This document shows, piece after piece, positions 1,964 to 36,614 of a stretch of DNA of 64,000 nucleotides. A model generated the notes under the pieces. The model did not search any database. It was not told the origin of the DNA and saw only the letters and a program-made list of their open reading frames with translations. The DNA is from a virus (Duplodnaviria > Heunggongvirae > Uroviricota > Caudoviricetes): IMG/VR virus record IMGVR_UViG_3300042296_001032; one strand, given 5' to 3'. A program made the translations under genes and the position numbers. Every line of letters begins with the position of its first letter. The first letter of the stretch is position 1.

Positions 1964-3131
1964 CAGATAAACCTAATGACTTAGCGTATCTTGGTAATCT
2001 ACATGCCCAATAACCAGCTGAACACTTATCATTCTTTTGTGGACATCTATGTCTATCAGAAAAGGCTTTTCTAGCTTTAGGGTCTTTTAATTTAACAGCC
2101 AATTTACCACCACCAGATTTGGCACCAAAAGAAACTTTTTTAACTTTATCACCACATTTAGTGTAAACATAGAATTTTTTTGAACCACCCCTTTTAGGTT
2201 TACCCAAAGAAACTTTTTTACCTTGGTATTCGGCCTCGTTAATAATTTCTATCTCTTCCTCACCTTCGTAAATTACGTCCAACCAAATAACTTTATTTTC
2301 GTAAATACCTCTCCTACCAATATCTGTATGTACTAACTCTTCATCTAAAGTAGAAAGGTCTATAATACCTTTGTTATATAAACTTCTAACCTCATTAATA
2401 AGTTTAAAATAACCTTCTGAACCATATCTATAAATATTTTCAGTTAGTGTTGGTCTATTTTCAAAGTGATAAAGTACGTTTTCTGAGATAAGTTCTTTTC
2501 CCTCTGTTATTAATTTTCCGTTAATGATATAATCTTCTTTCATAGTTTTAGTTTTTTTACCCCATGATTTGCCTTTACTAGATTTATATTTTTTACATGA
2601 ACCTGGTGTAGGTCTACAAGCCGGGTATTTACTTCTTTCTTCCCCTTCTTTTCTACCGCATGGTTTACATTTAGTCCTACCAGTTTCACTATCTTTTCTA
2701 CAGGTATTACAATCTACCCAACCACCACTTTTTCTTTTAAACCAATCTCTTAAATTAGTTTCTGAACTAGGTTTTGCTGTAAGTTTTCTTTTTTCGGTGA
2801 TTAAGTTTTCTAAATCAAAAACACTTTCATTTTTTTTACGTCCTTGACAATGTGCCTTTTGTGAAAAACCTTTTGGGTTATTGCAGTCTATGGATTTTTT
2901 ATACTTTTCAGACCACTTTTCTTCTAGTTGTTCATCTTCTTCTTTAGTTGAGTTACCCCAATTAGCAGCACCAACCTTTCTACATTTAGATAAAGCACCT
3001 GAAGCATAAGCAGAAGGCCACACATCGTATCTACTTTTTACTTTGTAGTAACAAGCGTCTCTTTTCTTTTTCTTTTTTCTTCTTTTTCTTTCGAAAAGAA
3101 GTTCAACATTTATGACCTCTCTAACGTCCAT
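1944..3131 (-). CDS. Highly basic Lys/Cys-rich protein (KRRKKKKKR; many CxxC/K-rich tracts), possible DNA-binding or virion-internal protein
   Basis: 395 aa ORF with extreme K/R/C composition at both ends and an acidic YGSEGYF-like central region. Confidence 0.55.
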   Translation of the reverse strand: MDVREVINVELLFERKRRKKKKKRDACYYKVKSRYDVWPSAYASGALSKCRKVGAANWGNSTKEEDEQLEEKWSEKYKKSIDCNNPKGFSQKAHCQGRKKNESVFDLENLITEKRKLTAKPSSETNLRDWFKRKSGGWVDCNTCRKDSETGRTKCKPCGRKEGEERSKYPACRPTPGSCKKYKSSKGKSWGKKTKTMKEDYIINGKLITEGKELISENVLYHFENRPTLTENIYRYGSEGYFKLINEVRSLYNKGIIDLSTLDEELVHTDIGRRGIYENKVIWLDVIYEGEEEIEIINEAEYQGKKVSLGKPKRGGSKKFYVYTKCGDKVKKVSFGAKSGGGKLAVKLKDPKARKAFSDRHRCPQKNDKCSAGYWACRLPRYAKSLGLSGGGTWW

Positions 3132-3138
3132 AAAAAAA

Positions 3139-3798
3139 TTATTTTCTCCAATCTGATGTACCAGTTGGGTAAATGTCGTTCATGTCATTATCCTCATCAT
3201 AAGGTAATCCACCCTCACCCATTTCAACCGATTTCCACATGTCACCACTATTGGTTTCATTCATTAAGAAATCAAACACTTGGTCCATATTGTTTTTAGC
3301 TTCAGCGATATGGTCTTGAGCCCAATCGTGACCTCCTTCTAGTATATCCTCAATTTGGTCCTCGTCTAAATCTAAAAGTAATCCAGCTTGTCTTCTAATT
3401 TGTTCTAGGTTAGAAAAAAACATATAACGAGAAGACTCATGTTCTTCACCTTCATTAATTTTTTCACCACAACATTTATTTATTTTAGACATAATTTTTC
3501 CGTATTGATTAAAGTCAAATTCGTCCCCAAATTTATCACCTACTTTTTTAACAGTAATTACATCTTTTCTAAACATAACTTGAGCTACATGTTTACCGTC
3601 ACAATAAATTTTAAAGTCGTTTCCATCCTTTTTTGCTTCACAATTAGACTTTAATCCTTTTTTAATTTTATCACGGAATGCATCCATTTTAACATCAAGG
3701 TCTTTTGTTGTAACAGCTTTTTGTAACTTACCTTCTTTGATTATTTTTTGAACTAATCTTTCTATATCTGATTCAGTTAATTTAATCACTTTTTTCAT
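3139..3798 (-). CDS. Hypothetical protein with acidic C-terminus; N-terminus MKKVIKLTESDIERL is weakly leader-like
   Basis: 219 aa ORF. Confidence 0.5.
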   Translation of the reverse strand: MKKVIKLTESDIERLVQKIIKEGKLQKAVTTKDLDVKMDAFRDKIKKGLKSNCEAKKDGNDFKIYCDGKHVAQVMFRKDVITVKKVGDKFGDEFDFNQYGKIMSKINKCCGEKINEGEEHESSRYMFFSNLEQIRRQAGLLLDLDEDQIEDILEGGHDWAQDHIAEAKNNMDQVFDFLMNETNSGDMWKSVEMGEGGLPYDEDNDMNDIYPTGTSDWRK

Positions 3799-3820
3799 AT
3801 CTTTATTTTTAATATAAATA

Positions 3821-4030
3821 TTACTCAGGTCTTTTAAATTTAACTACAACCCATATTAAATAGAAAAAAGAAACAATTACATTTAAATAAGGTATGTAAA
3901 AAAATTTATTTAAATCTAAATAAGTCTCATCTGAAATGTTATGGTCTAAAACCATTCCTTTTTTAAGAAATACGTGTGTAAGTGGGAAGGTAACCAATAC
4001 GGATAATACCCAATATATTATTTCAATCAT
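3821..4030 (-). CDS. Small membrane protein (two hydrophobic helices)
   Basis: 69 aa ORF, hydrophobic. Confidence 0.4.
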   Translation of the reverse strand: MIEIIYWVLSVLVTFPLTHVFLKKGMVLDHNISDETYLDLNKFFYIPYLNVIVSFFYLIWVVVKFKRPE

Positions 4031-4073
4031 AGTTAAGCTGTAATTTATCTTATTTATTAATATTTATTAATAT

Positions 4074-4739
4074 ATGAAAAACATTTCAAAAATAAAGTTA
4101 AACTTATTACAAGAAAAACTATACGTAGAGGGTCTATGTAATGAACTATACACTAACATAGCTTTTTACGGTGAAAGAGATTCTGATATAAAATTAATGA
4201 TTGAGTCTTCTAGTGAAGAAAAAGGTACTAATAAAATTTTAAATGATGTTGTAACAGATTTAAAATTGGCACCAAAGTTTATTTTTACTTTTGGTTCTGG
4301 TATTGGAGCTTTTCATGGACCTGTTAGTAGATTGTTACAAGGTTCAGGGTTTAGTATGACTAAAGAAGAAGTTGTTTTATTAATAATAACAGCTATAGCA
4401 ATTTTATTAAATGAACCAGATTCTAAAAAATTAATGGATACTGTTAAAGAAAAAGGTTTATTGCCAGCTTTAAAAGGTGTTAAAGATTTAATATCTAGTG
4501 TTCAAGAGATTATTAATAACATTACTAGAAAAGTAATTAATACCACTTATTCTTTATCAGATGTTTTAGGTTTTACTTTTCTATTGGTACCCACAATGCA
4601 AACTATAAGTAAACTTATTAATGATTATGGGATTACCACAGGAACAATAAGTGAATTGGTGAAGGGGTTATTATTCGCAACAATAACTTACTCGGTTAAA
4701 GGTGTCCTTAAAAAGATTGGTAAAAGGTTTAATGATTAA
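4074..4739 (+). CDS. Hypothetical protein with a hydrophobic central segment
   Basis: 221 aa ORF on the plus strand. Confidence 0.5.
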   Translation: MKNISKIKLNLLQEKLYVEGLCNELYTNIAFYGERDSDIKLMIESSSEEKGTNKILNDVVTDLKLAPKFIFTFGSGIGAFHGPVSRLLQGSGFSMTKEEVVLLIITAIAILLNEPDSKKLMDTVKEKGLLPALKGVKDLISSVQEIINNITRKVINTTYSLSDVLGFTFLLVPTMQTISKLINDYGITTGTISELVKGLLFATITYSVKGVLKKIGKRFND

Positions 4740-6588: not shown

Positions 6589-6620
6589 GGGAGGAAATTA
6601 TTCCTCCCTTCTTTTTTTCT
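6589..6620. terminator. Intrinsic terminator hairpin GGGAGGAA-atta-TTCCTCCC, flanked by A-run and T-run (bidirectional)
   Basis: Perfect 8 bp stem followed by T7. Preceded by A6 on the other strand. Confidence 0.55.
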
Positions 6621-6783
6621 CTTTATAAACGCCTTTAGATTTTTCTCTTCTCTTTCTTACAGACTTCTTATCAAATTCTTTTCTATCATTTAATTGTGAC
6701 ATCTGACGAGTTTTTATAACCTTACCCTTATACTCTTTAAGGGCTCTTTCAATGTTGCCTTTAACAACTTCTATAATAATCAT
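6598..6783 (-). CDS. rpsU: Ribosomal protein bS21-like small basic protein
   Basis: 61 aa, begins MIIIEVVKGNIERALKEYKGKV..., a basic tail follows, KRREKSKGVYKEKKRRE. Pattern matches Bacteroidetes bS21 (MxIIxVxxGENIExALKRFKRK ... KPS.RR). Phage-encoded S21 is well documented. Confidence 0.5.
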   Translation of the reverse strand: MIIIEVVKGNIERALKEYKGKVIKTRQMSQLNDRKEFDKKSVRKRREKSKGVYKEKKRREE

Positions 6784-6794
6784 ATATAAATTTT

Positions 6795-8159
6795 TTATCT
6801 AGTTATAGATACATTTTTTTCAGGGTCATAGAATACTAATTCTTTACTAGTTAAATCTAACTGTAGTTTTTCTATTTTTTCATTTAATTCACCTAATTGT
6901 TGGTCCATATCATCTCTTTTTGTTCTATAGGACGAAATAAAATTTTCAGATTTTTCAAGTTGTTCTACAACCCAATTATATTCATCATCATCACCCTCTT
7001 CTCTACCATATTCAAGCCTTTCTTTATAATTATTTAAAGAACGATAAACCGTATTTACTCTATCTAATTTATTATCTACAATATTTCTTTTATTCCTTAA
7101 TTCTGATAGTTTTAATTTTAACTGTCTAATAGTTTCAAGTGATTCAGAAGAATCCCCCAAAGAATCATAATAATCAGCTAAAGCTTGTTTAGTGTACTTC
7201 TCCATTACCTCTTTTAATTTAGCTAATGCTTCAGTACCCTTTTTTGCTTGGCCTCTACCAGGTCCACCTAAATATTTTAAAACTGTTTTTTCTGGTTTGT
7301 TCTCATCAGCAACATTCCAATAGTCTATCACAGAATTACTGACACTACCTTGGTTAATAAACTCTTCCCTACCCAATTCTCTTGTTTTCTCTAAAGCTCT
7401 ATTATAACCCCTACTTAAACCACCACGAAAAGGACGGTAATGCATTGCTATTTTATAATAGTTTGGTGTGTCCATACTACTTGTTGGAGCTAATCTTCTT
7501 TTATCCATTAAAAAGAATATAGGACCTTGTGTAAAATAATTTTCGTAATAACCAGTATAACCTCTCATAGTAACACACCATCTAGTGTTAGAACCGTATC
7601 TACATGAAGCCTTATGTGTTTTAGGCATCAAAATTAAGAAATCATCATCTTCATAAACCTTATCAACACCAGTCTCTTTTTGTTCTTTTCTTGAAAGTTT
7701 TAATTTTGCCTCATTTGACGCGTCCTCAAGTTCTTTTAAATTACCAAACTGATTTATATCCTTTTTTTCGTATTTTGATGGGTTTTTATGGAAATACTCA
7801 ATATCATCAGTAACTTTTAACAAATCTTCATTACCAAGTGATTGCATTTCCCTAGTTAAATTACGGATGCTATTCCATCTTGAGTCTTCGGCTGTGTCAG
7901 GAACTTGGGTAATGTCCCACCCATGCCAACTTCCAGCACTACTGGCGTTATCTTTAAACCATTTGATGGTTTTTCTTAACATATTTTTGGACAACCAATC
8001 CAAATACTTTTGGTTTCCTGAAGGGTCTATATCAGCTAATCTATCAATTTGGCCCCACATTGGTTGTGGGTATTTAGCTTTAACATCCTCAAGTCTACCT
8101 TCCAATAAAAGGTTTTCAACCTTCTCTAATATAAGTGTTGTAGTTTGTTTAATATTCAT
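6795..8159 (-). CDS. Paralog family A protein (DPSGNQKYLDWL ... ASCRYGSNTRWC motifs), coiled-coil C-terminus
   Basis: Start taken at the internal Met MNIKQTT so that the terminator hairpin at 8184-8207 lies upstream. Shares an N-terminal region of about 250 aa with 11187, 14090 and 16614. Confidence 0.6.
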   Translation of the reverse strand: MNIKQTTTLILEKVENLLLEGRLEDVKAKYPQPMWGQIDRLADIDPSGNQKYLDWLSKNMLRKTIKWFKDNASSAGSWHGWDITQVPDTAEDSRWNSIRNLTREMQSLGNEDLLKVTDDIEYFHKNPSKYEKKDINQFGNLKELEDASNEAKLKLSRKEQKETGVDKVYEDDDFLILMPKTHKASCRYGSNTRWCVTMRGYTGYYENYFTQGPIFFLMDKRRLAPTSSMDTPNYYKIAMHYRPFRGGLSRGYNRALEKTRELGREEFINQGSVSNSVIDYWNVADENKPEKTVLKYLGGPGRGQAKKGTEALAKLKEVMEKYTKQALADYYDSLGDSSESLETIRQLKLKLSELRNKRNIVDNKLDRVNTVYRSLNNYKERLEYGREEGDDDEYNWVVEQLEKSENFISSYRTKRDDMDQQLGELNEKIEKLQLDLTSKELVFYDPEKNVSITR

Positions 8160-8206
8160 AATAATAAATATGCTTAAAAATAAAAAGAGGATTTTAAAAC
8201 CCTCTT

Positions 8207-9688
8207 TTACCACTCAAATTCAATTAAATTTAGTTTTTTAATTGGCAAAAATTTATGTCTTAAAGAATCAGTAGTACCAAATTTGTTATAAGATTTAATC
8301 CATATCCCACTAATCAACTTATTAAAAATACTAACTTTTTTTTCATAATCTAAAACAGCAAGATTATGTTCACTATTTTTTCTAGACCTGAAAATTAATT
8401 TTACCAATAAATCTCTTTTAAAAACACCGTATTTGTCAACGAATTTTTTTGTGATATATTCTATCATTTTAAGTTGTTCTTTAACATTTTTAGTCACAAA
8501 AATTGAACCATCAGAAAATGTTTCTTGTGCTAGATAGTTATTAAAACTATGTATTTGTTCTAAATCTTCTACAATAAAATCACAGTCAAAATAACTTGGA
8601 CTCATATTTAAAATACTAATAAAATCAAAACCACCAAAAACAGTTTCTTTGTAGATATTACTAAGATTATGTTCGTAAGTTATACTTTTTTGATTCTGAA
8701 TATTTTTACCACCAGTAACTGAACTATAAATTTTATTGTAAAATGTTAAAACTTTATTAAAAGCCTCCTCATTTTTCTTTCTAACAAATAAATTCCAAAA
8801 AGAGATTAGTTTAGTGTTATGGTGTATATAAAAATTATTATAATATTTTTCTAACTCAAAACTATTAACCGTGTAATTAAAAACTTCTTGGTTTGAGTTT
8901 ATCTCCACATTAAAATCAAAATGTTCTAAAACAAACTCTCTATTATTCTTCACTTTTTCCATCCATTCAGGACCAATAGAATGAATTTTTTTAATTGTAA
9001 ATGAGTGTTTAATTAAATTCATTTCACAATCAAAGTTTGACATGTCTACCCCCAATTGTACAGATTTGTTTTTAAGTCTTACTGATGTTTGTAGAGGTTG
9101 TGAAACATTTGTAACTTCAATCATATTAGATTCTAAGAAATCTAAAAAATCTTCAGTATAAACGATATTACCGTTAACCCTATCTAAACCAGCCATACAA
9201 CAATTCAAATCAAAAACTGTTAAGAGAGTTTTATAATATTCAGTTTCATTAAAACCTTGAATTGATTTTTTAATAGTACTAACACTAATAGAAACCTTAT
9301 TAATTATACCAAAACGTTCACTACTAAACATTCGCATTGTCTCACCACTAGGACCAACCCAAGTTCTACCATAACCATCCACACCGGCCACATTATCCAA
9401 AGTGGCATGTATAAATAAATTCGGGTCATTGGTGTTGTATGACCAATCGTAACTTAAAACGTTGTCAAAAAAGAATAAGTCAACGTCGTTAATAATTGGT
9501 TCCTCAAACTTTTCTTTGTTTAAAAGATAGTAGATAGTATTTGCTACTGCACCACCTGCCATGAAGTAATGCATGGGGTAATCATCAACCCCAGCCCCAT
9601 CTGAATGGAGTTTGTGATTGATGATTTCCAAGACCTTGTTATAGGTCTTCCCACTGTTCAAAAACTTTATTAATTCTTTTCTATTCAT
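8207..9688 (-). CDS. Putative pol-beta-superfamily nucleotidyltransferase (AGGAV...DVDLFFFD), possibly tRNA nucleotidyltransferase-like
   Basis: 493 aa. N-terminal GG-x-V then D-x-D motif resembles the head domain of CCA-adding / poly(A) polymerase enzymes. Weak. Confidence 0.4.
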   Translation of the reverse strand: MNRKELIKFLNSGKTYNKVLEIINHKLHSDGAGVDDYPMHYFMAGGAVANTIYYLLNKEKFEEPIINDVDLFFFDNVLSYDWSYNTNDPNLFIHATLDNVAGVDGYGRTWVGPSGETMRMFSSERFGIINKVSISVSTIKKSIQGFNETEYYKTLLTVFDLNCCMAGLDRVNGNIVYTEDFLDFLESNMIEVTNVSQPLQTSVRLKNKSVQLGVDMSNFDCEMNLIKHSFTIKKIHSIGPEWMEKVKNNREFVLEHFDFNVEINSNQEVFNYTVNSFELEKYYNNFYIHHNTKLISFWNLFVRKKNEEAFNKVLTFYNKIYSSVTGGKNIQNQKSITYEHNLSNIYKETVFGGFDFISILNMSPSYFDCDFIVEDLEQIHSFNNYLAQETFSDGSIFVTKNVKEQLKMIEYITKKFVDKYGVFKRDLLVKLIFRSRKNSEHNLAVLDYEKKVSIFNKLISGIWIKSYNKFGTTDSLRHKFLPIKKLNLIEFEW

Positions 9689-10078: not shown

Positions 10079-11158
10079 ATGAAAAAATTATTATTATCGT
10101 TATTTTTATTATTAAGTACATTGTCATATGGTCAAACTGTTATTCAATATGACTACATGGAAACATGGTCAACAGGTTACGCAACTTCTGGTTGGTTTGG
10201 AGCACCAACAGCAACGTGGGCAACAAATATATCAGTTTCTCCTACTCAGAGTGCTGTAATATATGGAGCTGGAAGTGGAACTTCTGGAGTTGAACAAGCT
10301 TGGTATGTATTACCAAATATTACAGGGTTAAATACATCACATCCATACCAATTAAAATTCCGTTTAGCGTCACAAACATTTACAGGTCCAACGGCATTAA
10401 CACGTGGATTGGATGCTACAGATTTAGTTGAAGTTCAAGTTTCAAGAAATGGAGGCGCATATGTTTCTGAGCTTAGAATTACAGGAAATGCAAATGCAAT
10501 TTGGCCATACACTGCAACAGGTGTAATCAGTCATAATGCAAATGGTTCATATACAAATTCTTTGGCTCCAACAGGTGACATATATCAAGCTCCTGCAGGT
10601 TCAACTACAACGGGACCGTCTACGGTTACTTTGAATCTCCCATCTGGAATTTCTCAAATAGCAATCGATATTTTTTGTAGAGTAAATTCAGCTGGTGAGG
10701 AATGGTGGATTGATAATATTGAATTGATAGAAATATTCCCACTACCAGTAGAAATGATTTCTTTTGAAGGTACAAACCATGAGGAGGGTAACCTACTAGT
10801 ATGGAAAACCGCTTCCGAACATAATTCAGATTATTATTTAATTGAATGTTCTACCACAGGTGAGTTTAATGAAAGTACGGTTATAGGTAATAAAACCGCA
10901 GCTGGTAATAGTAACCAAGTAATGGAGTATAGTTTTTTAGATAACAATTTTAGAGAAACAATAAATTACTATAGAATCACCCAAGTAGATTTTAATGGTG
11001 AATATAAAATATATGGACCAATATCAATCGATAACAGAACAACAAAGAAAGTGGTTATTAAATACGTTAATTTGTTAGGTCAAGTGGTAGATAAAGATTA
11101 CCGAGGGTTCTTTTTTGAGGTGTACTCTGATGGAACAAATAAGAAGATTTATAGATAA
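10079..11158 (+). CDS. Secreted protein with a T9SS-type C-terminal sorting domain
   Basis: Signal peptide MKKLLLSLFLLLSTLSYGQ. C-terminus YYRITQVDFNGEYKIYGPISI...IKYVNLLGQVV...GFFFEVYSDGTNKKIY resembles the Por/T9SS CTD. Confidence 0.6.
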   Translation: MKKLLLSLFLLLSTLSYGQTVIQYDYMETWSTGYATSGWFGAPTATWATNISVSPTQSAVIYGAGSGTSGVEQAWYVLPNITGLNTSHPYQLKFRLASQTFTGPTALTRGLDATDLVEVQVSRNGGAYVSELRITGNANAIWPYTATGVISHNANGSYTNSLAPTGDIYQAPAGSTTTGPSTVTLNLPSGISQIAIDIFCRVNSAGEEWWIDNIELIEIFPLPVEMISFEGTNHEEGNLLVWKTASEHNSDYYLIECSTTGEFNESTVIGNKTAAGNSNQVMEYSFLDNNFRETINYYRITQVDFNGEYKIYGPISIDNRTTKKVVIKYVNLLGQVVDKDYRGFFFEVYSDGTNKKIYR

Positions 11159-14089: not shown

Positions 14090-15265
14090 TTAATCAAGAT
14101 TATTTTTTATTTTGTATTCTTCTAAATAATCTCCAATAAATAATTCTGCTTCTTTATAATAATGGTTACTCATTTCAAACCCTACTACTTCATCTAATAT
14201 TTCATTAAATTCTTCTTCATATTCATCAACTATTTCTTCAGTTAAAACATCTGAGATTTCTAAAGGTCTGCCAAACACTCTCTCTATTTCTTCCCCAATG
14301 GGTAGGTCTGGGTTAATATTATACTTCTGTCCTAATATTAATTTAACCGTATAGGTTAATTCTCGTAATAACATATCTCTATCAATATAATAATCATTAA
14401 ATGGTGAATTATTCAAATCTTGTAATAACATATCATATAACTCTTCCTTATCCATACCGAGGTGTAATAACTCTTCCAGATCAAAACCAGGTGAGTCAAA
14501 TAATCCATCCATAACTTCATTATTTATTATAAAATATGAGTGACTTTCAATAAAACTCTTAAAATTTATTAAATCCTCAAATGTTGTAATAAAATCATGT
14601 CCATTATTAGTTAACCAATCATTAATATAGTTATAATTAATACGACCAATTTGTTCTGGTGATGCCGTCATTTTTCTTGAGTTGTGGTACTCCATTAATT
14701 TTTCAATAATTTGTTCGTATTTTGGATGTAGATGAATTATAATTTGAGGATTTGTTTTACAATTATTAACTGCATTACACCAATCGGTTCCACCCCCTGC
14801 TTTAATATGGTAAGAAAATTTATGATTTGGGTCGTCCTGTGGTTTGTTTTTAAAAATCCAAAAGAATTCAGTTCCAGTAGTATTATGTCTATCCCAGTAT
14901 GAACTAGTATCTTTAGCAGTTGTACACCATTTAGAACCCGCACCATATTTACAAGACGCTTCCCACGTATTAGCTGCCACTACCAACAAGTCTTTATCTT
15001 CATAAAACTTAGTAACATCATCAGGGGCTTTAGCCTTTTTAATTTGATTTAAATCTTTTAATAATTCTTCATAAGAATTGTAATTAGCAAAATCTTTTTT
15101 TGGTAGACTTCTTCTATTATCAATTACATCATCCATTATTTTCATGGCAGCCTCAGGGTTACCACTTTTCTTATTAGCCCAAGATTTATAAAGATTTTGT
15201 ATATGTTCAATACCCTCAAAAAGTGAACGTTTAATTTCTTCTAAAATAATTTTTTTAATATTCAT
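14090..15265 (-). CDS. Paralog family A protein (MNIKKIILEE...; ASCKYGAGSKWCTTAKD)
   Basis: Start at the internal Met. Shares the family motifs. Confidence 0.6.
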   Translation of the reverse strand: MNIKKIILEEIKRSLFEGIEHIQNLYKSWANKKSGNPEAAMKIMDDVIDNRRSLPKKDFANYNSYEELLKDLNQIKKAKAPDDVTKFYEDKDLLVVAANTWEASCKYGAGSKWCTTAKDTSSYWDRHNTTGTEFFWIFKNKPQDDPNHKFSYHIKAGGGTDWCNAVNNCKTNPQIIIHLHPKYEQIIEKLMEYHNSRKMTASPEQIGRINYNYINDWLTNNGHDFITTFEDLINFKSFIESHSYFIINNEVMDGLFDSPGFDLEELLHLGMDKEELYDMLLQDLNNSPFNDYYIDRDMLLRELTYTVKLILGQKYNINPDLPIGEEIERVFGRPLEISDVLTEEIVDEYEEEFNEILDEVVGFEMSNHYYKEAELFIGDYLEEYKIKNNLD

Positions 15266-15283
15266 ATTAATAAATATACTGTA

Positions 15284-15313
15284 CAAAAAAAAAGACCCAC
15301 ATTTCTGTGAGTC
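15284..15313 (-). terminator. Intrinsic terminator (GACTCACAGAAATGTGGGTC followed by T9, minus strand)
   Basis: Stem plus long T-run, downstream of the tmRNA region. Confidence 0.5.
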
Positions 15314-15525: not shown

Positions 15526-15908
15526 TGGTGGAGGTGGAGGGTTTCGAACCCTCGTCCTGCGTTACATTACTAACGTCTTCTACATGCTTATTCCATTTTA
15601 ATCTAAATGGACAAAATATTTGATTTATTATTTACCATTGTAAATCAACAAACAATGGGTATCATTCGATTTTGGGTTCAATGATAATCCACCACAACTA
15701 CGACTTCTGTTGCTAGGTTATATGTCTGCCGACCCCGTAGTAACACCTAATATGATTAGGCAGCTACTGTTGCACCTTCAGTCACAAAGTGACCTACAGT
15801 TGCGTTTGCGAATACGTCGCCGTTTGAAGTTTCAATACGTGTATTAACGTGATAGTATTATTTCACGACATGCTTACCCATTACCAATCGTTAACCAGTC
15901 AAATCCAA
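15526..15908 (-). ncRNA. ssrA: tmRNA (ssrA-like)
   Basis: Minus-strand 5' end GGGGGTGTTTTTGGATTTGACTGG matches the canonical GGGGCUGAUUCUGGAUUCGACGGG. 3' end ...TAAGCATGTAGAAGACG...GGACGAGGGTTCGAAACCCTCCACCTCCACCA matches canonical UAAGCAUGUAG...GGUUCGA..CCACCA. Internal candidate tag frame ends ...EGATVAA then TAA. Confidence 0.7.
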
Positions 15909-15969
15909 AAACACCCCCAATAATTCAAAGAACTCTTACAAATATAAGAATAAATATTAAATAATCAAA

Positions 15970-16201: not shown

Positions 16202-16612
16202 ATGGCTATACCTAAAAGTAAAAAGGACCTTGAGTTAATTCAGGAATGTAGAGTCTTGGTTAGAAAAAACCCACACCTCAAAAAACGTAAATTAAATGCT
16301 ATAAAAGATTTAGAAAAAAGACTTTATTATATAAAAGTATGGGTTATAACTGAATCACAACCACTTTTTAAATTAATAAACTATGACAAACGGTGTTTTA
16401 GGGGACCTTCCTGTTATCATTTGGACCACACGGTACCAATAATTTACGGTTACAATAATAACATCCCACCCGAAAAAATAGGGGGTATTTCTAACCTAAG
16501 ATTTATACCTTCAGAGGATAACATAAGGAAAGGATATAAAATAACTGAAGAATCACATAAAGTTTTAAGGAAATTTAAGCGGAAAGGTGATATTTATAAA
16601 AAAAAGAAATAA
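16202..16612 (+). CDS. HNH endonuclease (HLDHTVPI...N...N motif)
   Basis: 136 aa. His-Asn-Asn spacing typical of HNH nucleases. Confidence 0.5.
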   Translation: MAIPKSKKDLELIQECRVLVRKNPHLKKRKLNAIKDLEKRLYYIKVWVITESQPLFKLINYDKRCFRGPSCYHLDHTVPIIYGYNNNIPPEKIGGISNLRFIPSEDNIRKGYKITEESHKVLRKFKRKGDIYKKKK

Positions 16613-16613
16613 A

Positions 16614-18038
16614 ATGAAATTTAACTTATCTCAAATTTTAGAATCTACTATATTATTAGAAGGTAGAAGAGAAGATGTAATTAAAAAATATGGTGAAGAC
16701 CATACCGAACTTGTTGATATGTTTGTTGAGGTTGACCCATCAGGAAATAACAAATATCTTGACTGGATGATTAAAACCGCTTTAGGTAAAAATCAAGATG
16801 ACAGTATACCAATGGCTGACCAAATAGCTAAAGCTGTAGTGGACTATCATAGACTATTACCTAGAATTAAACAAAAAGATATTAATACTTATAAATCTTT
16901 ATCTGAATTAAATGATGTTGTTGCTCAAGCTTTAAAAGATGAAAAAGACAAAAGAATTTCTAAAGAAGCGACAAAAATTTATGACAAAGATGGTGTTGTG
17001 ATTTACGTACCATTCACAGTTGAAGCTTCATGTAAATATGGTGCTGGGTCTAAGTGGTGTATAGCTGGTAAAAGTGGTGATAATAATTTAAATACTTATT
17101 TTGACTCCTATAGTGAACACTCAAATTTCTACTTTTTTATTAACAATAATTTAGTTAATAGTGATAGTACACATTACAAATACGCTTTACAATGGAGATT
17201 TGATGGTAATGGTAGAGATTTAACTTGGTGGGATGCACGAGATGATTCACACAGTAACGCACCTTATTGGGTGACTCCTGATATGATGGCGGTTGTGGAA
17301 GCTTTTAATCCTTCACACACTAAGAAAAAATTAGCTATAAAAATAGCTTCTTTCCTTGATGACCCTAAATTTGATGAGTACGCTAAATTTAAAGATTATA
17401 TTACACCTGAACAAAAAACTAACGTGATTAGTAAAATTATTAAAAAAGGTGGACTTAACTCTAAAGCTTTTAGTATTTTAGCGTCTGACCTTAATGATAA
17501 ACAAAAAATGGACTTTATCACTAACTACGTCAAAGGTACAGTTAACGCTAATGATTATAAACAAATGCAAGAACATTTAACAGAGTTACAAAAAATGACT
17601 TTAGTTAAATTCAATCCATCTATTCTTAATAATATTGATGTTATGAATGACTTGAATAAGGAATTGACAGATGACCAAAAATATGAATTATCTAAAGTAG
17701 TTGACGCAAAACAAATAAACAATACAGATAGTAAAGTATTGTTTAGAAAATGGTCTATGAGTGCTGAAGAAAGAGCAAAACACGGTCAAACTTCTTTCTA
17801 TGTATTCTTATCTAATCCAGAAGACTTAGTTGAGAAGATAGTTAAAGTTGACCCATTAGACCCAGAATCATATAGAACAATCAACATGATGAAACTAAGA
17901 AAACAAGTACAACCTGATACTTCAATGTATGGTATTAAAACTGAATCTGGTTTCCTTGATGATTACATTGGTAAATCTACATCAGATATACCTACTTCTG
18001 TTTTAGAAACTATAAAAGAAAAATCAACAAAAATTTAA
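16614..18038 (+). CDS. Paralog family A protein (MKFNLSQILES...; DPSGNNKYLDWM; ASCKYGAGSKWCIAGK)
   Basis: Start at the internal Met to avoid overlap with the HNH gene. Terminator follows. Confidence 0.6.
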   Translation: MKFNLSQILESTILLEGRREDVIKKYGEDHTELVDMFVEVDPSGNNKYLDWMIKTALGKNQDDSIPMADQIAKAVVDYHRLLPRIKQKDINTYKSLSELNDVVAQALKDEKDKRISKEATKIYDKDGVVIYVPFTVEASCKYGAGSKWCIAGKSGDNNLNTYFDSYSEHSNFYFFINNNLVNSDSTHYKYALQWRFDGNGRDLTWWDARDDSHSNAPYWVTPDMMAVVEAFNPSHTKKKLAIKIASFLDDPKFDEYAKFKDYITPEQKTNVISKIIKKGGLNSKAFSILASDLNDKQKMDFITNYVKGTVNANDYKQMQEHLTELQKMTLVKFNPSILNNIDVMNDLNKELTDDQKYELSKVVDAKQINNTDSKVLFRKWSMSAEERAKHGQTSFYVFLSNPEDLVEKIVKVDPLDPESYRTINMMKLRKQVQPDTSMYGIKTESGFLDDYIGKSTSDIPTSVLETIKEKSTKI

Positions 18039-31248: not shown

Positions 31249-31518
31249 TTATTTAGTTAATTCAATTTCTTTATAACGTTCATTAAGTTCTTTTGAGTTT
31301 ACTCCAAGATATTCTAACTCAACTTCACACCCACAATCATTATTAAATCTTAGTGTATCAATAATTAAAATTTTACTACCACTAACCTTATGTGTTACAA
31401 AATCACCGTTTTTGAATTTAAACTTTTGTTTGTAATATTCTTCGTCACTACAACCACATCCTGTTAGAAATAGGATGGTAACAAGTACTGTCACCATCCC
31501 AATAAATCCATTCTTCAT
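31249..31518 (-). CDS. Small lipoprotein (MKNGFIGMVTVLVTILFLTGC...)
   Basis: Start at the internal Met gives a signal peptide plus LTGC lipobox and removes the overlap with the SPFH gene. Confidence 0.5.
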   Translation of the reverse strand: MKNGFIGMVTVLVTILFLTGCGCSDEEYYKQKFKFKNGDFVTHKVSGSKILIIDTLRFNNDCGCEVELEYLGVNSKELNERYKEIELTK

Positions 31519-32468
31519 TATTTGTTTAGGTTTAAAAACAATCCTGAACCACCTGCTACCGTTGTTGGTAATTTTCCATCCCAAGCAGACGCCTTTAAGT
31601 ACTCAATATACATAGGTGTTAATTGAGTTTGTTTAATCTTAATTGAAAGTGCTGACGCATTTGCGTTGATTATAGTTTCAGCAGAATCCGCTCTTGCTAC
31701 GGCTACTTTACGTCTTCCTTCAGAGATTGCTGCGATAGCTTGTTGTTCAGAGGCTTCAGCTTGTTGGATAGCCTTTGTTTTAGCGATAATTGACTCTTGT
31801 AATGCCTCAGGTGGTGTGATATTAGTTCTCAACTGAGATACGTTAAACCATTTAGATAACCTAACATTACATTCTGCAACAATTGCTGATTCAAATGCTT
31901 GTCGGTGATTAAAAATACTATCTACCTCCCATGTGTTAGCTACGTCATTTACTGCCCCAATAATAGCGTTTTTCAACCAACCCTTTTCAATTTCACTAAT
32001 AGATAATCTTAAATTAACAAACATATCACCAATAGCATCCTCACGTAGAGAATAGTTAAATGTTGGTTTAATGGTTGCTGAGAATCCACCTTTAAGGATT
32101 ACACCTTGGTCTTCATACTCAATGTGTTGTTGGTATGTTGGAAACTCCAATACTTGTTCTGTCCAAGTGTTATAAAGTACCCAACCAGTTTTATACTGAT
32201 AACTTGATACACCTCGTTGGTCTCCGACCAAATTAATCTTTAATCCTTTGTGACCTGCGTCAACTTTTTCAATCGCAAACGGTTGGGTCATTGAAATAAC
32301 GATACCTACAACAAAAATACCAATCGGTTTAATGAGCCAAGATGGGTTGAATCGTTTACTATCATGACCGTAATGGTTTTGGGTTACCGTAAACATACTA
32401 CCTCTTGTTTTTAGAACGGTAAGGATAACCGCAATTAAACATACTACAAAAATTACTGTACTAATCAT
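31518..32468 (-). CDS. SPFH / band-7 (prohibitin / HflKC-like) membrane protein
   Basis: N-terminal TM helix. PPEALQESIIAKTKAIQQAEA...EGRRKVAVARADSAE is the typical SPFH coiled-coil signature. Confidence 0.75.
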   Translation of the reverse strand: MISTVIFVVCLIAVILTVLKTRGSMFTVTQNHYGHDSKRFNPSWLIKPIGIFVVGIVISMTQPFAIEKVDAGHKGLKINLVGDQRGVSSYQYKTGWVLYNTWTEQVLEFPTYQQHIEYEDQGVILKGGFSATIKPTFNYSLREDAIGDMFVNLRLSISEIEKGWLKNAIIGAVNDVANTWEVDSIFNHRQAFESAIVAECNVRLSKWFNVSQLRTNITPPEALQESIIAKTKAIQQAEASEQQAIAAISEGRRKVAVARADSAETIINANASALSIKIKQTQLTPMYIEYLKASAWDGKLPTTVAGGSGLFLNLNK

Positions 32469-32751: not shown

Positions 32752-33372
32752 TTAAAAATAAGTTTGTTCAAAATAAAGTATTTGGAATTTATCCCCTTTA
32801 TCAATCAAATTGGATGCGTTAATCAAATCATTGTATTCAATTACAGCTCCTTTTTGGATTTCTCTAAATTCAGTTAAAAAATCAAATGTTGTGATATCAT
32901 CAGAAAAAACATCCTGAGAATCTTTATTATAATCTTTCATTAAAGCCAACTCCATAGTGTAAGCTCCATAAACAACATCAAGTAAATTACCAAAAGTGTG
33001 TTTTGTTTCTGTTTTTTCTATTTCAGGTAAAATATTAAAACCTGTCATATACTCTTGTAGTTTTTGAGCGTGTTCTAACTCATCGTCAGCCTCATTTTTA
33101 AAGAACTCAGCAGCTTTCTTATAATTCATATCCTGACACCAGTTAGTAGCCGCTCTATAATAGTAATGAGCTGTATACTCATCTTTAATTCTATTATTAA
33201 GAATTTCTATAACCTTACTACTTAATTTATAAAGTTCAGGTTCACCTTTTGTTTCAGTTTTCTTTTCTTCAGTATCTTTGTTTTCTTCTTCCTCTTCTTG
33301 TTCACGAATTCTACTCTTTCTAAGAATTTCATCAACAATAGCTGAAGTACTTCTATTAATATTTCTACTCAT
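32752..33372 (-). CDS. Ferritin-like diiron protein with an acidic, K/E-rich N-terminal extension
   Basis: EYTAHYYYRAATNWCQD...EADDELEHAQKL...EL matches the ferritin E/ExxH ligand pattern. Confidence 0.6.
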   Translation of the reverse strand: MSRNINRSTSAIVDEILRKSRIREQEEEEENKDTEEKKTETKGEPELYKLSSKVIEILNNRIKDEYTAHYYYRAATNWCQDMNYKKAAEFFKNEADDELEHAQKLQEYMTGFNILPEIEKTETKHTFGNLLDVVYGAYTMELALMKDYNKDSQDVFSDDITTFDFLTEFREIQKGAVIEYNDLINASNLIDKGDKFQILYFEQTYF

Positions 33373-34801: not shown

Positions 34802-35263
34802 TCATACATAATACTCAATTTTAACTCTTATACAATCTTGTGATTTACCTTCATTCATTAAAAAGTTATTGATATAACCCATGATATTAGCTGAACCTAT
34901 TGGGTTAGCTGAATGAACCACAACTTTAGGGAAATAAAAATTTTTATCCCTTTTTTTCTCAGACCTACTCATGTTGATTCTATGTTCATTCAAAGAATAA
35001 AACAAATTAACTAACCATTTAACCGCGTCGTAACCAGTTTTTTCTTCTATGTTCTCATAATCTAATTTGTAGTTAGGTGAAACATTGTTATAATACTCAT
35101 TCATAGCAGTATCACCCAAGTCATGGTCTAATGAAATTAATTCGATGTTATTCAAACCAACTTTATTTATTAAGTCTACAAATTCATAAAAACTCCTAAC
35201 AACCAACCAATCTTTGTCATTAGGAGTTCTTATGTCATCCAAATATATTTTTACTTTATTCAT
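34802..35263 (-). CDS. Hypothetical protein
   Basis: 153 aa ORF. Confidence 0.5.
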   Translation of the reverse strand: MNKVKIYLDDIRTPNDKDWLVVRSFYEFVDLINKVGLNNIELISLDHDLGDTAMNEYYNNVSPNYKLDYENIEEKTGYDAVKWLVNLFYSLNEHRINMSRSEKKRDKNFYFPKVVVHSANPIGSANIMGYINNFLMNEGKSQDCIRVKIEYYV

Positions 35264-35280
35264 ACCACAAAGATAACCTA

Positions 35281-35976
35281 TTAATCAACAAATTCCAAAT
35301 GATTTGTGTTTTTATCCCATAAAACATTCACAGGTTTATTGCGGAACTCATATCGTCCATTTAACACAGCTGCGTTAATGTAGTGAGTATTTCCATCAAA
35401 CACATAACCATAACCTTCGTGGATGTGTCCAAATACGTGAATTTTTGGTTTGATTACTTCAACTCGTTTCATTAGTTCTTCACAACCAACATTTTGATTT
35501 GGGTATTTTACGTAATCCAATTTGCCAAATGGTGGTCCGTGAGTGATAAGAATGTCAGTACCAACTGTTATCATATCCCACTTCTCTTTTAAAGCTTGTC
35601 CTCTTGGTAAGTTAAATGCCCAATTATGAAATTCAGGTTGCCAAGGAGTACCCCAAACTTTAACCATATCGTCATAATCCTCATCACCAACCAATAAAAG
35701 TTCGTCTTGTAAATATTCAACTGTTTTATAACCAGTTAACAAACCTTTAGTTTCATTAGGTTGGTCTTGGAAACCAAAGTCGTGATTACCTGCTATGAAA
35801 ATTTTGTGGTCATAGTTATCAATTTTATCAAACCACTTAAGAAAATTTTCAATTTCAGTTTTATAACCTCTACTAGTGATATCACCAGCACAGATTAACA
35901 TATCACCACCAGGAAGAAAACCGTTAAGTTTCTCGTGTTTGGTGTGTGTGTCACTAATAAAGGTTAATTTTTTCAT
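35281..35976 (-). CDS. Calcineurin-like metallophosphoesterase
   Basis: Motifs ISDTHTKH, CAGDITSRG, AGNHD, GHIHEG. Confidence 0.7.
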   Translation of the reverse strand: MKKLTFISDTHTKHEKLNGFLPGGDMLICAGDITSRGYKTEIENFLKWFDKIDNYDHKIFIAGNHDFGFQDQPNETKGLLTGYKTVEYLQDELLLVGDEDYDDMVKVWGTPWQPEFHNWAFNLPRGQALKEKWDMITVGTDILITHGPPFGKLDYVKYPNQNVGCEELMKRVEVIKPKIHVFGHIHEGYGYVFDGNTHYINAAVLNGRYEFRNKPVNVLWDKNTNHLEFVD

Positions 35977-36019
35977 AATTACAAATATAAGGGTTATTGT
36001 TTAATTGGCAAAATAAAAG

Positions 36020-36102
36020 TACGTCAGGGGGGAGTCGAACCCCCACATCTTAACGATATTGGTTCCTAAAACCAACGCGTCTACCAATTCCGCCACTGAC
36101 GT
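36020..36102 (-). tRNA. tRNA-Leu (TAG), class II
   Basis: ACGTCAG-TG-GCGGAATTGGTAGACGC-G-TTGGT-TTTAGGA-ACCAA-TATCGTTAAGATGT-GGGGG-TTCGACT-CCCCC-CTGACGT-A. Confidence 0.7.
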
Positions 36103-36103
36103 A

Positions 36104-36180
36104 TGGAGCGGGTGGCGGGATTCAAACCCGCAACTCCCAGCTTGGAAGGCTAGTACTCTAGTCAATTGAGCTACACCCGC
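36104..36180 (-). tRNA. tRNA-Gly (TCC), CCA encoded
   Basis: GCGGGTG-TA-GCTC..GAGT-A-CTAGC-CTTCCAA-GCTGG-GAGTT-GCGGG-TTTGAAT-CCCGC-CACCCGC-T-CCA. Confidence 0.75.
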
Positions 36181-36452: not shown

Positions 36453-36457
36453 ATTAG

Positions 36458-36528: not shown

Positions 36529-36536
36529 ATATAATG

Positions 36537-36606: not shown

Positions 36607-36614
36607 GTGTTTTG

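What the first reader, a model, noticed from the sequence alone, without database searches (positions are those of the whole stretch)
10079..11158. Phage-encoded proteins carrying host type IX secretion / gliding C-terminal sorting domains (also 43353..45560)
Two plus-strand genes, isolated among minus-strand genes, encode secreted proteins ending in Bacteroidetes-specific C-terminal domains: a Por/T9SS-type tail (10079..11158) and a CHU_C gliding-type domain (PNTFTPDGDAFNN...; 43353..45560, 735 aa, Cys/Asn/Thr-rich repeats). This implies the phage exports its own proteins to the host cell surface through the host T9SS. Possible purposes are blocking superinfection, modifying receptors, or degrading extracellular polymers. 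The domains also pin the host to a T9SS-bearing Bacteroidetes lineage.
Basis: partly seen in the sequence, partly recalled or inferred. Interest (0 to 1): 0.7.

Follow-up and report, generated by a model that had tools for sequence, protein, structure and literature searches.

The report
Huge-phage proteins tagged for host secretion
A very large phage of Bacteroidota carries two conserved genes for exported proteins: one has a genuine host type IX secretion "type B" sorting domain, while the other ends in a short, unannotated tail that fails the type A model but replaces a true type A signal found in close relatives, so the phage probably puts its own proteins on the host surface, an idea already published for another phage.

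Summary
Both ORFs are real, conserved genes in a huge-phage context: 31% GC, 24 tRNAs, a tmRNA, phage-type genes, and a 55%-identical ORF B homologue in the 634,780-bp uncultured phage LR745206.

ORF B (43353..45560) passes both type B T9SS sorting-domain models (TIGR04131 43.2 bits, cutoff 35; PF13585 47.2, cutoff 27). It has a signal peptide followed by Gln, 25 Cys, and Ig-like repeats resembling Aureispira GhpA. No PorP/SprF shuttle gene was detected nearby, so it looks like an "orphan" type B substrate that would need a host shuttle.

ORF A (10079..11158) does not match the type A tail models, while positive controls do. Its last ~140 aa are an Fn3-like domain plus a ~40-aa tail. This unannotated module sits at the extreme C-terminus of many Bacteroidota signal-peptide proteins, mainly in Crocinitomicaceae and other Flavobacteriales. 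Eight of eight ~400-430-aa relatives with the same passenger and Fn3-like domain end in Por_Secre_tail matches, four of them above threshold. The tail therefore occupies the T9SS-signal position, but its function is unproven.

Phage-encoded T9SS cargo was already reported (Bellas 2020). I rate this a new variant of a known kind, of moderate interest.

The parts
10079..11158 (+). ORF A, 359 aa: conserved phage gene for an exported protein (signal peptide, jelly-roll passenger, Fn3-like domain, short C-terminal tail)
   Evidence: ORF. 859 homologues with E<=0.001; the best 120 are 58-100% identical over ~360 aa and have no Pfam domain. The start is supported by alignment A1. Found in 56 IMG/VR viral contigs.
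10079..10132 (+). ORF A signal peptide (aa 1-18, MKKLLLSLFLLLSTLSYG|Q)
   Evidence: Read from the sequence. M1 and Q19 are invariant across 25 homologues. Gln at +1 fits the Bacteroidetes Q-rule (PMC5837995). No predictor was run.
10133..10738 (+). ORF A passenger domain (aa 19-220), all-beta, jelly-roll-like; the most conserved part of the protein
   Evidence: 71% mean identity to homologues. AF2 strands and Foldseek matches to MAM and CBM-like modules, with patchy model confidence. The same domain heads 557-1045-aa proteins that end in PF18962.
10739..11032 (+). ORF A Fn3-like domain (aa 221-318, LPVE...NYYRITQVDFNG...)
   Evidence: pLDDT about 80-93. In other Bacteroidota the same domain is followed by a canonical type A CTD.
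11033..11155 (+). ORF A short C-terminal tail (aa 319-359, NRTTKKVVIKYVNLLGQVVDKDYRGFFFEVYSDGTNKKIYR), three predicted strands; not a type A CTD by HMM
   Evidence: No TIGR04183/PF18962 hit. Invariant N319, G334, G343, Y349, D351, G352. Always at the extreme C-terminus in relatives. Replaced by Por_Secre_tail matches in ~400-430-aa relatives.
43353..45560 (+). ORF B, 735 aa: conserved phage gene for a Cys-rich, Ig-repeat, adhesin-like protein with a T9SS type B sorting domain
   Evidence: ORF. At least 1397 homologues; the best 120 are ~725-820 aa and all carry PF13585. 54.8% identity over 98% of its length in phage LR745206. 189 IMG/VR matches.
43353..43403 (+). ORF B signal peptide (aa 1-17, MNLIKYLFILISFVTYS|Q)
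   Evidence: Read from the sequence. Q18 and C20 are invariant. Every viral homologue whose N-terminus was inspected has one.
43404..44312 (+). ORF B N-terminal passenger region (aa 18-320), the most conserved part, many invariant Cys; no known family
   Evidence: 76-80% identity. No Pfam or PDB sequence match. Moderate to low pLDDT.
44313..45272 (+). ORF B Ig-like repeats (aa 321-640; PKD_6 at aa 397-449)
   Evidence: PF19408 26.2 bits. Homologues also hit PF13573 SprB repeat. pLDDT 80-92. Best PDB fold matches are fragments of Aureispira GhpA, E 5e-13 to 1e-9.
45285..45557 (+). ORF B type B T9SS C-terminal sorting domain (aa 645-735)
   Evidence: TIGR04131 43.2 bits (cutoff 35), profile positions 2-85 of 85. 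PF13585 47.2 bits (cutoff 27). Hallmark residues are invariant in 24 homologues: P647, N648, F650, T651, P652, W682, G683, W696, G698, G708, Y710, G729.

Best explanation
The window comes from a huge, contractile-tailed phage of Bacteroidota related to the 'Mahaphage' genomes. It carries two long-conserved accessory genes. Their products are exported by the host Sec pathway and then, most likely, handed to the host type IX secretion system.

ORF B is an adhesin-like protein with a conserved Cys-rich N-terminal domain, Ig-like repeats of the SprB/GhpA type, and a genuine type B sorting domain. No PorP/SprF shuttle gene was found next to it or in the window. It would therefore have to use a host shuttle, as the 'orphan' type B substrates of Flavobacterium johnsoniae do, and would end up anchored on the infected cell's surface.

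ORF A is a jelly-roll (MAM/CBM-like) domain plus an Fn3-like domain, ending in a ~40-aa tail. That tail is not a type A CTD by any model. It stands where relatives carry Por_Secre_tail matches, and it belongs to a strictly C-terminal module common in Crocinitomicaceae and other Flavobacteriales. I infer that it is a lineage-specific, reduced sorting signal that serves the same purpose.

Shown here: gene reality, phage context, domain content, conservation, and the tail-for-CTD replacement. Inferred: actual export, the shuttle used, and the biological role. The most likely role is remodelling or masking the host surface, for example to block superinfection or re-adsorption or to alter adhesion. 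Neither protein has an enzyme domain.
For: Phage context:
- 24 tRNAs plus a tmRNA and 30.9% GC.
- S21, Gp23-domain, Mom, phage lysozyme and HNH genes, and PHROG hits.
- ORF B homologue in the 634,780-bp phage LR745206.
- Both families occur in IMG/VR viral contigs.

ORF B:
- Passes TIGR04131 and PF13585.
- Invariant signal peptide plus Gln, and 22 invariant Cys.
- GhpA-like Ig repeats. GhpA is a T9SS substrate with PorP/PorE homologues downstream (bioRxiv 10.1101/2024.01.29.577165).
- Type B substrates are adhesins needing PorP/SprF shuttles, and orphan substrates share one shuttle (PMC12618676, PMC9143113).

ORF A:
- The C-terminal ~140 aa recur at the extreme C-terminus of proteins of 137-1885 aa with diverse cargo; the search found 36,777 representatives at E<=0.001, counting matches to any part of ORF A.
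- The full module is found in Fluviicola, Crocinitomicaceae and other Flavobacteriales genomes, including a 1.95-Mb contig and a clearly bacterial neighbourhood.
- In other Bacteroidota the same Fn3-like domain precedes a canonical type A CTD.
- 8 of 8 ~400-430-aa relatives end in Por_Secre_tail matches: 35-48 bits in four, 22-26 bits in four, gathering score 27. At least one sits in a phage-like context.
- Longer relatives sharing the N-domain also end in PF18962.

CTDs are species-specific (PMC11285876), which fits a phage copying its host lineage's variant.
Against: - ORF A's tail fails TIGR04183 and PF18962. It has only three predicted strands, against the seven-strand sandwich that defines type A CTDs (PMC12618676).
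- Its similarity to the end of canonical CTDs is not significant: hhalign P=0.0019 over 16 columns with probability 14%, and only 8 of 46 tails exceed the 5% shuffle threshold.
- No PorP/SprF gene was detected in the window, within 5 kb of 80 viral homologues, or in the deposited huge-phage genomes. This rests on a single-sequence search of limited sensitivity.
- In at least 28 of 80 viral relatives the ORF B homologue lies inside the tail gene module. That also allows a virion-related role.
- The host is unknown, and no secretion, expression or localisation data exist.
- Signal peptides were judged by eye only.
Confidence: 0.6

Rival explanations
1. Only ORF B is T9SS cargo. ORF A's short tail is not a secretion signal. 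It is what remains after loss of a type A CTD, or simply a beta-hairpin extension of the Fn3-like domain. ORF A would then stay in the periplasm or outer membrane, or be released only at lysis.
For: No hit to any T9SS CTD model. Only three predicted strands. Similarity to canonical CTDs is not significant. One bacterial protein (L070) shows that truncated CTD remnants do occur.
Against: The tail is conserved, with invariant N319, G334, G343, Y349, D351 and G352. With its Fn3-like domain it is reused as a strictly C-terminal module on very different cargo proteins that carry signal peptides. This is the behaviour of a sorting signal, not a decaying remnant. It coexists with canonical CTD cargo in the same genomes.
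Confidence: 0.28
2. The proteins are virion-associated Ig-like or adhesin decorations (tail or capsid). The 'sorting domains' would then be reused beta-sandwich binding modules rather than secretion signals.
For: In at least 28 of 80 IMG/VR relatives the ORF B homologue lies directly after the tail sheath (phrog_23, 243 bits) and tail tube genes and before baseplate-hub-like and tape-measure-like genes. The viral fold search lists many Ig-repeat tail and decoration proteins.
Against: Every homologue whose N-terminus was inspected, including those in tail modules, keeps an N-terminal signal peptide with Gln at +1, and there are 22 invariant Cys. That points to an oxidising, extracytoplasmic location, whereas virions assemble in the cytoplasm. 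In this window the gene lies outside any structural module and on the opposite strand. Genes for exported proteins inserted in tail regions are known (lambda lom; own knowledge).
Confidence: 0.08
3. The genes are recent captures from the host, or the contig is bacterial or chimeric, and they have no phage-specific role.
For: Both domain types are typical of Bacteroidota chromosomes. GC of the two ORFs (34.6% and 35.3%) is slightly above the window mean of 30.9%. Gene neighbourhoods differ between relatives.
Against: Both families are large, of constant length, and 58-100% identical across the best 120 homologues of each, on contigs up to 300 kb with phage-type content. They occur in IMG/VR and in a complete 634,780-bp phage genome. 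The passenger domains are the most conserved parts. This indicates long-term selection within phages.
Confidence: 0.04

Closest known systems
'Cryophage' T9SS type A cargo proteins (Bellas et al. 2020, Nat Commun, PMC7468147)
   Same: Phage-encoded proteins carrying a T9SS C-terminal sorting domain, interpreted as hijacking the host T9SS to change the host surface or secretome. Superinfection exclusion was also proposed there.
   Different: Those proteins carry type A domains on enzymes and a PA14 protein, and are hypervariable islands in one phage. Here, one protein has a type B domain on an adhesin-like passenger and the other has a non-canonical tail. Both are conserved across a large clade related to huge phages.
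Orphan type B CTD substrates of Flavobacterium johnsoniae (Fjoh_1123, Fjoh_1720, Fjoh_4934; shuttle Fjoh_1677; PMC12618676)
   Same: A type B CTD with no porP/sprF-like gene downstream, adhesin-like passengers, and dependence on a shuttle encoded elsewhere.
   Different: Those are chromosomal genes with an identified shuttle. For the phage protein the shuttle is unknown and would have to be supplied by the host, or by a part of the phage genome outside the window.
SprB (F. johnsoniae) and GhpA grappling-hook protein (Aureispira; PDB 9fly, 9flw; bioRxiv 10.1101/2024.01.29.577165)
   Same: Sec signal peptide, strings of Ig-like repeats with disulfides, and a C-terminal T9SS sorting domain. GhpA fragments are the best fold matches. 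SprB-repeat Pfam hits occur in homologues.
   Different: SprB and GhpA are 5,900-6,500 aa with PorP/PorE-type partners next door. ORF B is 735 aa, has a distinct and highly conserved N-terminal domain, and has no detected partner gene.
Canonical type A CTD (TIGR04183 / PF18962; seven-strand beta-sandwich; PMC11285876)
   Same: ORF A's tail occupies the same terminal position after the same Fn3-like domain. Relatives carry Por_Secre_tail matches there.
   Different: The tail is about 40 aa rather than about 75-100 aa, has three predicted strands rather than seven, and gives no HMM match.
Phage-encoded host-envelope proteins such as lambda Lom/Bor and T5 Llp (own knowledge), and Q-rule signal-peptide proteins of Porphyromonas gingivalis phages (PMC10367356)
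   Same: Accessory phage genes whose products are exported to the host envelope. Some lie within tail gene regions. Some block receptors or alter surface properties.
   Different: Those use lipoprotein or beta-barrel insertion routes, and none is known to use the T9SS. The function here is only inferred.

Membership tests
T9SS type B sorting domain (TIGR04131 / PF13585 CHU_C) - ORF B | Match to the family HMM above the curated cutoff | tested here: met
   TIGR04131 43.2 bits against 35, positions 2-85 of 85. PF13585 47.2 bits against 27.
T9SS type B sorting domain (TIGR04131 / PF13585 CHU_C) - ORF B | Domain at the extreme C-terminus of a protein with an N-terminal Sec signal peptide | tested here: met
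   Domain spans aa 645-735 of 735. Signal peptide MNLIKYLFILISFVTYS|Q with invariant Q18. The signal peptide was judged by eye; no predictor was available.
T9SS type B sorting domain (TIGR04131 / PF13585 CHU_C) - ORF B | Cognate porP/sprF-like shuttle gene, usually immediately downstream (PMC12618676) | tested here: not met
   Minus-strand tRNA genes lie downstream. No PF11751 among the precomputed or scanned Pfam hits across the window. No phmmer hit to a Chondrinema PorP/SprF protein in the window or within 5 kb in 80 viral loci. tblastn found none in the huge-phage records. Orphan substrates exist in bacteria, so this feature is common but not obligatory.
T9SS type B sorting domain (TIGR04131 / PF13585 CHU_C) - ORF B | Secretion depends on the T9SS and a PorP/SprF shuttle | not testable with these tools
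   Needs genetics or proteomics in the unknown host.
T9SS type A sorting domain (TIGR04183 / PF18962 Por_Secre_tail) - ORF A | Match to the family HMM above the curated cutoff | tested here: not met
   No hit at E<=1 in NCBIfam or Pfam. Five positive controls score 32-49 bits, and five other short-tail proteins score nothing.
T9SS type A sorting domain (TIGR04183 / PF18962 Por_Secre_tail) - ORF A | Compact seven-strand Ig-like beta-sandwich of about 70-100 aa (PMC11285876, PMC12618676) | tested here: not met
   After the Fn3-like domain only about 40 aa remain, with three predicted strands (326-331, 344-349, 354-358). The length after the shared anchor motif is 53 aa, against 99 aa in canonical relatives.
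T9SS type A sorting domain (TIGR04183 / PF18962 Por_Secre_tail) - ORF A | Conserved C-terminal motifs of the CTD | tested here: inconclusive
   hhalign aligns 'k.Ivk..NlLGQeV' with the canonical 'i.I.d..G..V' strand (P=0.0019, 16 columns, probability 14%). With an HMM of the last 30 aa of canonical CTDs, 8 of 46 tails exceed the 5% shuffle threshold.
T9SS type A sorting domain (TIGR04183 / PF18962 Por_Secre_tail) - ORF A | C-terminal position on signal-peptide proteins of T9SS-bearing Bacteroidota, interchangeable between cargos | tested here: met
   The module is strictly terminal on proteins of 137-1885 aa with diverse cargo and signal peptide plus Gln. The best 80 genome loci are nearly all labelled Bacteroidota. 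Relatives carry Por_Secre_tail matches in its place.
Phage-encoded T9SS cargo (as in Bellas et al. 2020) | Gene lies in a phage genome and encodes signal peptide + passenger + T9SS CTD | tested here: met
   Met for ORF B. For ORF A it is met only in the ~400-430-aa relatives with Por_Secre_tail matches, one of which has a homing-endonuclease neighbour.
SprB/GhpA-type surface filaments | Very large protein (thousands of aa) of Ig-like repeats with adjacent PorP/PorE-type anchoring genes | tested here: not met
   ORF B is 735 aa with no adjacent partner gene. Only the repeat fold and CTD type are shared.

The most novel reading that the evidence does not exclude
The Fn3-like domain plus ~40-aa tail (consensus ...IDNR...K.v.K..N.LGQEV....G.vi.vY.DGT..K...) may be a previously undescribed, reduced class of T9SS (or other outer-membrane) sorting signal. 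It would be used by Crocinitomicaceae and other Flavobacteriales and copied by their huge phages. It would then mark many currently 'hypothetical' proteins as secreted, and would serve as a host-lineage marker for uncultured huge phages. In addition, phages would be loading an orphan type B adhesin onto a host PorP/SprF shuttle, possibly onto the gliding machinery.
Probability: 0.35. Interest if true: 0.7.

Novelty: new variant of a known kind. Interest (0 to 1): 0.5.

Why it matters
If the proteins are exported as inferred, huge phages of Bacteroidota remodel the surface of their hosts through the hosts' own phylum-specific secretion system. They would do so with conserved genes rather than occasional captures.

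This gives a testable route to several questions:
- Superinfection exclusion or adhesion control in abundant freshwater Flavobacteriales.
- An independent host-range marker for uncultured huge phages, because CTDs are lineage-specific.
- A possible new sorting-signal variant covering many unannotated bacterial proteins.

The general idea of phage-encoded T9SS cargo is already published, and databases already auto-annotate some phage proteins with the gliding C-terminal domain. The advance is therefore incremental unless the short tail proves to be a real signal.

Tried and rejected
- Megablast of 12 kb of the window against GenBank phages found no match. Only protein-level searches were informative.
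- Sigma-70 promoter and terminator scans around both genes gave counts no higher than shuffles in this AT-rich DNA, so no statement on transcription is made.
- Sequence searches of the ORF A module, the ORF A N-domain and the ORF B N-domain against PDB sequences found nothing meaningful.
- Whole-chain Foldseek of ORF A gave only generic jelly-roll/MAM/FN3 matches with poor superposition.
- Profile-profile and shuffle tests for homology of the short tail to type A CTDs were inconclusive.
- The search for other CTD-bearing ORFs in the window found only ORF A and ORF B.
- The search for a phage PorP/SprF shuttle used a single bacterial sequence and was negative.
- Polymer degradation was considered and set aside, because no enzyme domain was found in either protein.
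- Bacterial contamination was considered and rejected.
Full report
**1. What is at the coordinates**

Both ORFs are present on the + strand. ORF A is 10025/10079..11158 and ORF B is 43353..45560. Each is flanked by minus-strand genes or tRNA genes.

Both proteins begin with a typical Sec signal peptide followed by glutamine: MKKLLLSLFLLLSTLSYG|Q and MNLIKYLFILISFVTYS|Q. That Gln is invariant in the homologues (Q19; Q18). It fits the Bacteroidetes 'Q-rule' for signal peptidase I substrates (PMC5837995), which has already been noted in proteins of Porphyromonas gingivalis phages (PMC10367356). I judged the signal peptides by eye; no predictor was available.

**2. Context: a huge phage**

- The window has 30.9% GC.
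- It carries 24 tRNA genes and a tmRNA (ARAGORN; Rfam RF00023 at 99.3 bits).
- It is packed with small genes of unknown function, plus an S21-like gene, Gp23-domain ORFs, Mom-like genes, a phage lysozyme, HNH and other phage-type genes, and several PHROG matches.
- ORF B has a 54.8%-identical, full-length homologue in LR745206, a 634,780-bp uncultured phage genome. ORF A's C-terminal part matches four such genomes of 462-642 kb.
- Genomes of this size class were described as the Mahaphage clade, with predicted Bacteroidetes hosts (PMC7162821).
- Both families occur in IMG/VR viral contigs: 189 matches for ORF B and 56 loci for ORF A.

The phage context is therefore sound.

**3. ORF B**

The C-terminus (aa 645-735) matches TIGR04131 over nearly the whole profile (43.2 bits, cutoff 35) and PF13585 CHU_C (47.2 bits, cutoff 27). 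A PKD_6 repeat is also detected.

The family is large. At least 1397 clusters were found; the best 120 are ~725-820 aa and all carry PF13585, and some also hit the SprB repeat. JGI already labels it 'gliding motility-associated-like protein'.

In 24 aligned homologues, 22 Cys and the CTD hallmark residues are invariant (PN.FTP, RWG, W.G, G.Y). The most conserved part is the N-terminal passenger (about 80% identity), not the repeats (52%) or the CTD (58%).

The AlphaFold model is all-beta, with confident Ig-like repeats and CTD. Its best PDB fold matches are fragments of GhpA, the grappling-hook protein of Aureispira (E 5e-13 to 1e-9). GhpA is a T9SS substrate with PorP/PorE homologues encoded downstream (bioRxiv 10.1101/2024.01.29.577165).

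[quoted passage not shown] They are collected by a cognate PorP/SprF-family shuttle, usually encoded just downstream, although 'orphan' substrates sharing one shuttle exist (PMC12618676, PMC9143113). Here the downstream neighbours are tRNA genes. I found no PorP/SprF gene in any of the following:
- the Pfam hits on record or scanned across the window;
- a phmmer search with a Chondrinema PorP/SprF protein against the window, or against all ORFs within 5 kb of 80 viral homologues;
- a tblastn search of the deposited huge-phage genomes.

The last two are single-sequence searches of limited sensitivity. On this evidence ORF B is an orphan type B substrate that would have to use a host shuttle.

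**4. ORF A**

There is no hit to TIGR04183 or PF18962 at E<=1.

The family is nevertheless real. It has 859 hits at E<=0.001; the best 120 are about 360 aa, 58-100% identical, with no Pfam domain and labelled 'hypothetical protein'.

An exhaustive search of 1.84 billion representatives was the key result. Residues ~220-359 recur, at about 45% identity, at the extreme C-terminus of proteins of 137 to 1885 aa. These proteins have unrelated passengers (GEVED, a T9SS-associated galactose-binding-like domain, fn3, Listeria-Bacteroides repeats) and signal peptide plus Gln. The search returned 36,777 hits at E<=0.001, counting matches to any part of ORF A.

In species-representative genomes, the best 80 loci are nearly all labelled Bacteroidota. 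They fall into two classes:
- 25 loci, mostly Fluviicola, Crocinitomicaceae and other Flavobacteriales, including a 1.95-Mb contig. These have the full module: an Fn3-like domain of about 100 aa plus a tail of about 40 aa.
- 50 loci, from Cytophagales, Chitinophagales, Saprospiraceae and others. These have the same Fn3-like domain followed by about 75-90 aa starting with 'YPNP'.

The second kind passes TIGR04183 (32-49 bits, cutoff 23) and the first kind does not. The same split appears in the protein database. Full-module proteins have no Pfam hit and are 'hypothetical'. Proteins matching only the Fn3-like part carry PF18962 and are named 'T9SS type A sorting domain-containing protein'. One full-module protein sits in a plainly bacterial neighbourhood, next to a PI-PLC enzyme with a canonical tail.

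**5. The tail stands where a real CTD stands**

Eight of eight relatives of about 400-430 aa that match ORF A across the passenger and Fn3-like domain end in a Por_Secre_tail match. Four score 35-48 bits and four score 22-26 bits, against a gathering score of 27. One of them lies beside a homing-endonuclease gene among small unknown ORFs, a phage-like setting. Another lies beside bacterial-looking genes. Longer proteins (557-1045 aa) sharing only the ORF A passenger also end in PF18962.

So the passenger belongs to a T9SS-cargo family, and the short tail replaces the CTD in a subset. This is good circumstantial evidence that the tail, or the module, does the same job. It is not proof, for three reasons:
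- The tail has only three predicted strands, against the seven-strand sandwich of type A CTDs.
- Profile-profile alignment finds only a 16-column match to the 'i.I.d..G..V' strand (P=0.0019, probability 14%).
- A shuffle test with the last 30 aa of canonical CTDs is barely enriched: 8 of 46 tails exceed the 5% level.

Membership in the type A family is therefore rejected. 'Works like a CTD' stays open, at roughly even odds.

The ORF A passenger is an all-beta, jelly-roll-like domain. Foldseek matched it to MAM and CBM-like modules, on a model of patchy confidence. No enzyme domain was found.

**6. Other related observations**

- The 642-kb phage LR756502 encodes a 236-aa signal-peptide protein with the same module.
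- LR745206 has the module out of frame behind a 424-aa secreted PKD protein.
- In this window only ORF A and ORF B carry such domains.
- Gene neighbourhoods of both families differ between relatives.
- In at least 28 of 80 viral contigs the ORF B homologue lies directly after the tail sheath and tail tube genes and before baseplate-hub-like and tape-measure-like genes. Every homologue whose N-terminus I inspected, including several from tail modules, still has the signal peptide plus Gln.

I read this as an accessory gene that sits in different places, sometimes within the late region. It does keep a virion-related role formally possible.

**7. Mechanism proposed**

Sec export and signal-peptide cleavage, probably with pyroglutamate formation, is strongly inferred. 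After that:
- ORF B folds with disulfides in the periplasm. Its type B CTD is recognised by the host T9SS and a host PorP/SprF-family shuttle. It is then anchored on the cell surface, possibly on the gliding track (inferred from family behaviour; PMC12618676, PMC9143113).
- ORF A is exported by the T9SS through its lineage-specific tail (inferred, weaker).

Both passengers look like binding modules. The likeliest role is surface remodelling: masking receptors against superinfection or re-adsorption, or changing adhesion. That step is speculation. It is consistent with the remark that huge phages encode surface-localised proteins that may alter susceptibility to other phages (PMC7162821).

CTDs are not interchangeable between species (PMC11285876). 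The short-tail variant therefore tentatively points to a Crocinitomicaceae-like Flavobacteriales host.

**8. Novelty**

- Phage-encoded T9SS cargo has been published: type A domains on an endoglucanase, a GH39 enzyme and a PA14 protein in 'Cryophage', called a unique occurrence at the time (PMC7468147).
- The viral structure library already holds uncultured-phage proteins auto-annotated 'Gliding motility-associated, C-terminal domain' and 'SprB repeat'.
- I found no paper that discusses type B domains in phages or T9SS cargo in huge phages.

What is new here:
- a type B, shuttle-dependent, orphan adhesin-like cargo conserved across a large phage clade;
- an unannotated short C-terminal module shared by Flavobacteriales and their huge phages.

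I rate this a new variant of a known kind, with interest about 0.5.

Noticed in passing
window 15526..15918 (-): A phage-encoded tmRNA (Rfam RF00023, 99.3 bits, full length). ARAGORN predicts the tag peptide ANATVGHFVTEGATVAA, which looks atypical to me (own knowledge, not checked).
   Followed up: partly
window 23.5, 28.2-30.0, 36.0-37.1 and 45.6-47.3 kb (-); also 24002-24110, 28280-28360, 28632-28737, 36537-36606: 24 tRNA genes lie in clusters, all on the minus strand. Four further weak tRNA-like Rfam matches were found, two of them 106-109 nt long and possibly interrupted or degenerate tRNAs.
   Followed up: no
window 34802..42435 (-): A cluster of two-component signalling genes lies next to ORF B: a 641-aa GAF-PAS histidine kinase (40510..42435), a second HATPase_c protein (38499..39902), a response regulator (38054..38491), a cREC_REC protein (34802..35263) and a metallophosphatase. 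This is unusual cargo for a phage.
   Followed up: no
window ~6598..6783 (-), 31518..32468 (-), 32752..33372 (-), 49706..50489 (-), 51606..53133 (-), 53899..55341 (-), 55947..56360 (-), 57634..58566 (-): Other notable genes: S21-like ribosomal protein, SPFH/Band 7 protein, ferritin-like protein, small Gp23-domain ORFs, two Mom-like genes, a DUF2828/phrog_850 'RNA-binding' protein (498 bits), FKBP and DnaJ.
   Followed up: no
L099 2455..10892 and at least 27 other IMG/VR loci (L100, L123, L125 ...): In about a third of the viral relatives, the ORF B homologue sits between the tail sheath/tail tube genes and baseplate-hub-like and tape-measure-like genes, co-directional with them. In this window it lies elsewhere, on the opposite strand to its neighbours.
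   Followed up: partly
L087 (LR745206) 2691..3965 and 3932..4369: A 424-aa signal-peptide/PKD protein is followed, in a different overlapping frame, by the Fn3-like plus short-tail module. This could be a frameshift (programmed or an error) or a pseudogene in the deposited 634,780-bp genome.
   Followed up: partly
L088 (LR756502) 3815..4525: A 236-aa secreted protein with the same short-tail module lies directly after a GalE-like epimerase gene in the 642-kb phage genome.
   Followed up: no
window 6795..8213 (-), 14090..15286 (-), 16587..18038 (+): Three large ORFs hit the same PHROG families of unknown function (phrog_17056, phrog_28193). This suggests a paralogous family within the window.
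   Followed up: no
L070 (Flavobacteriia MAG, LacPavin): A bacterial protein in which the Fn3-like domain is followed by only the last ~38 aa of a canonical type A CTD. It shows that natural CTD truncations occur.
   Followed up: no
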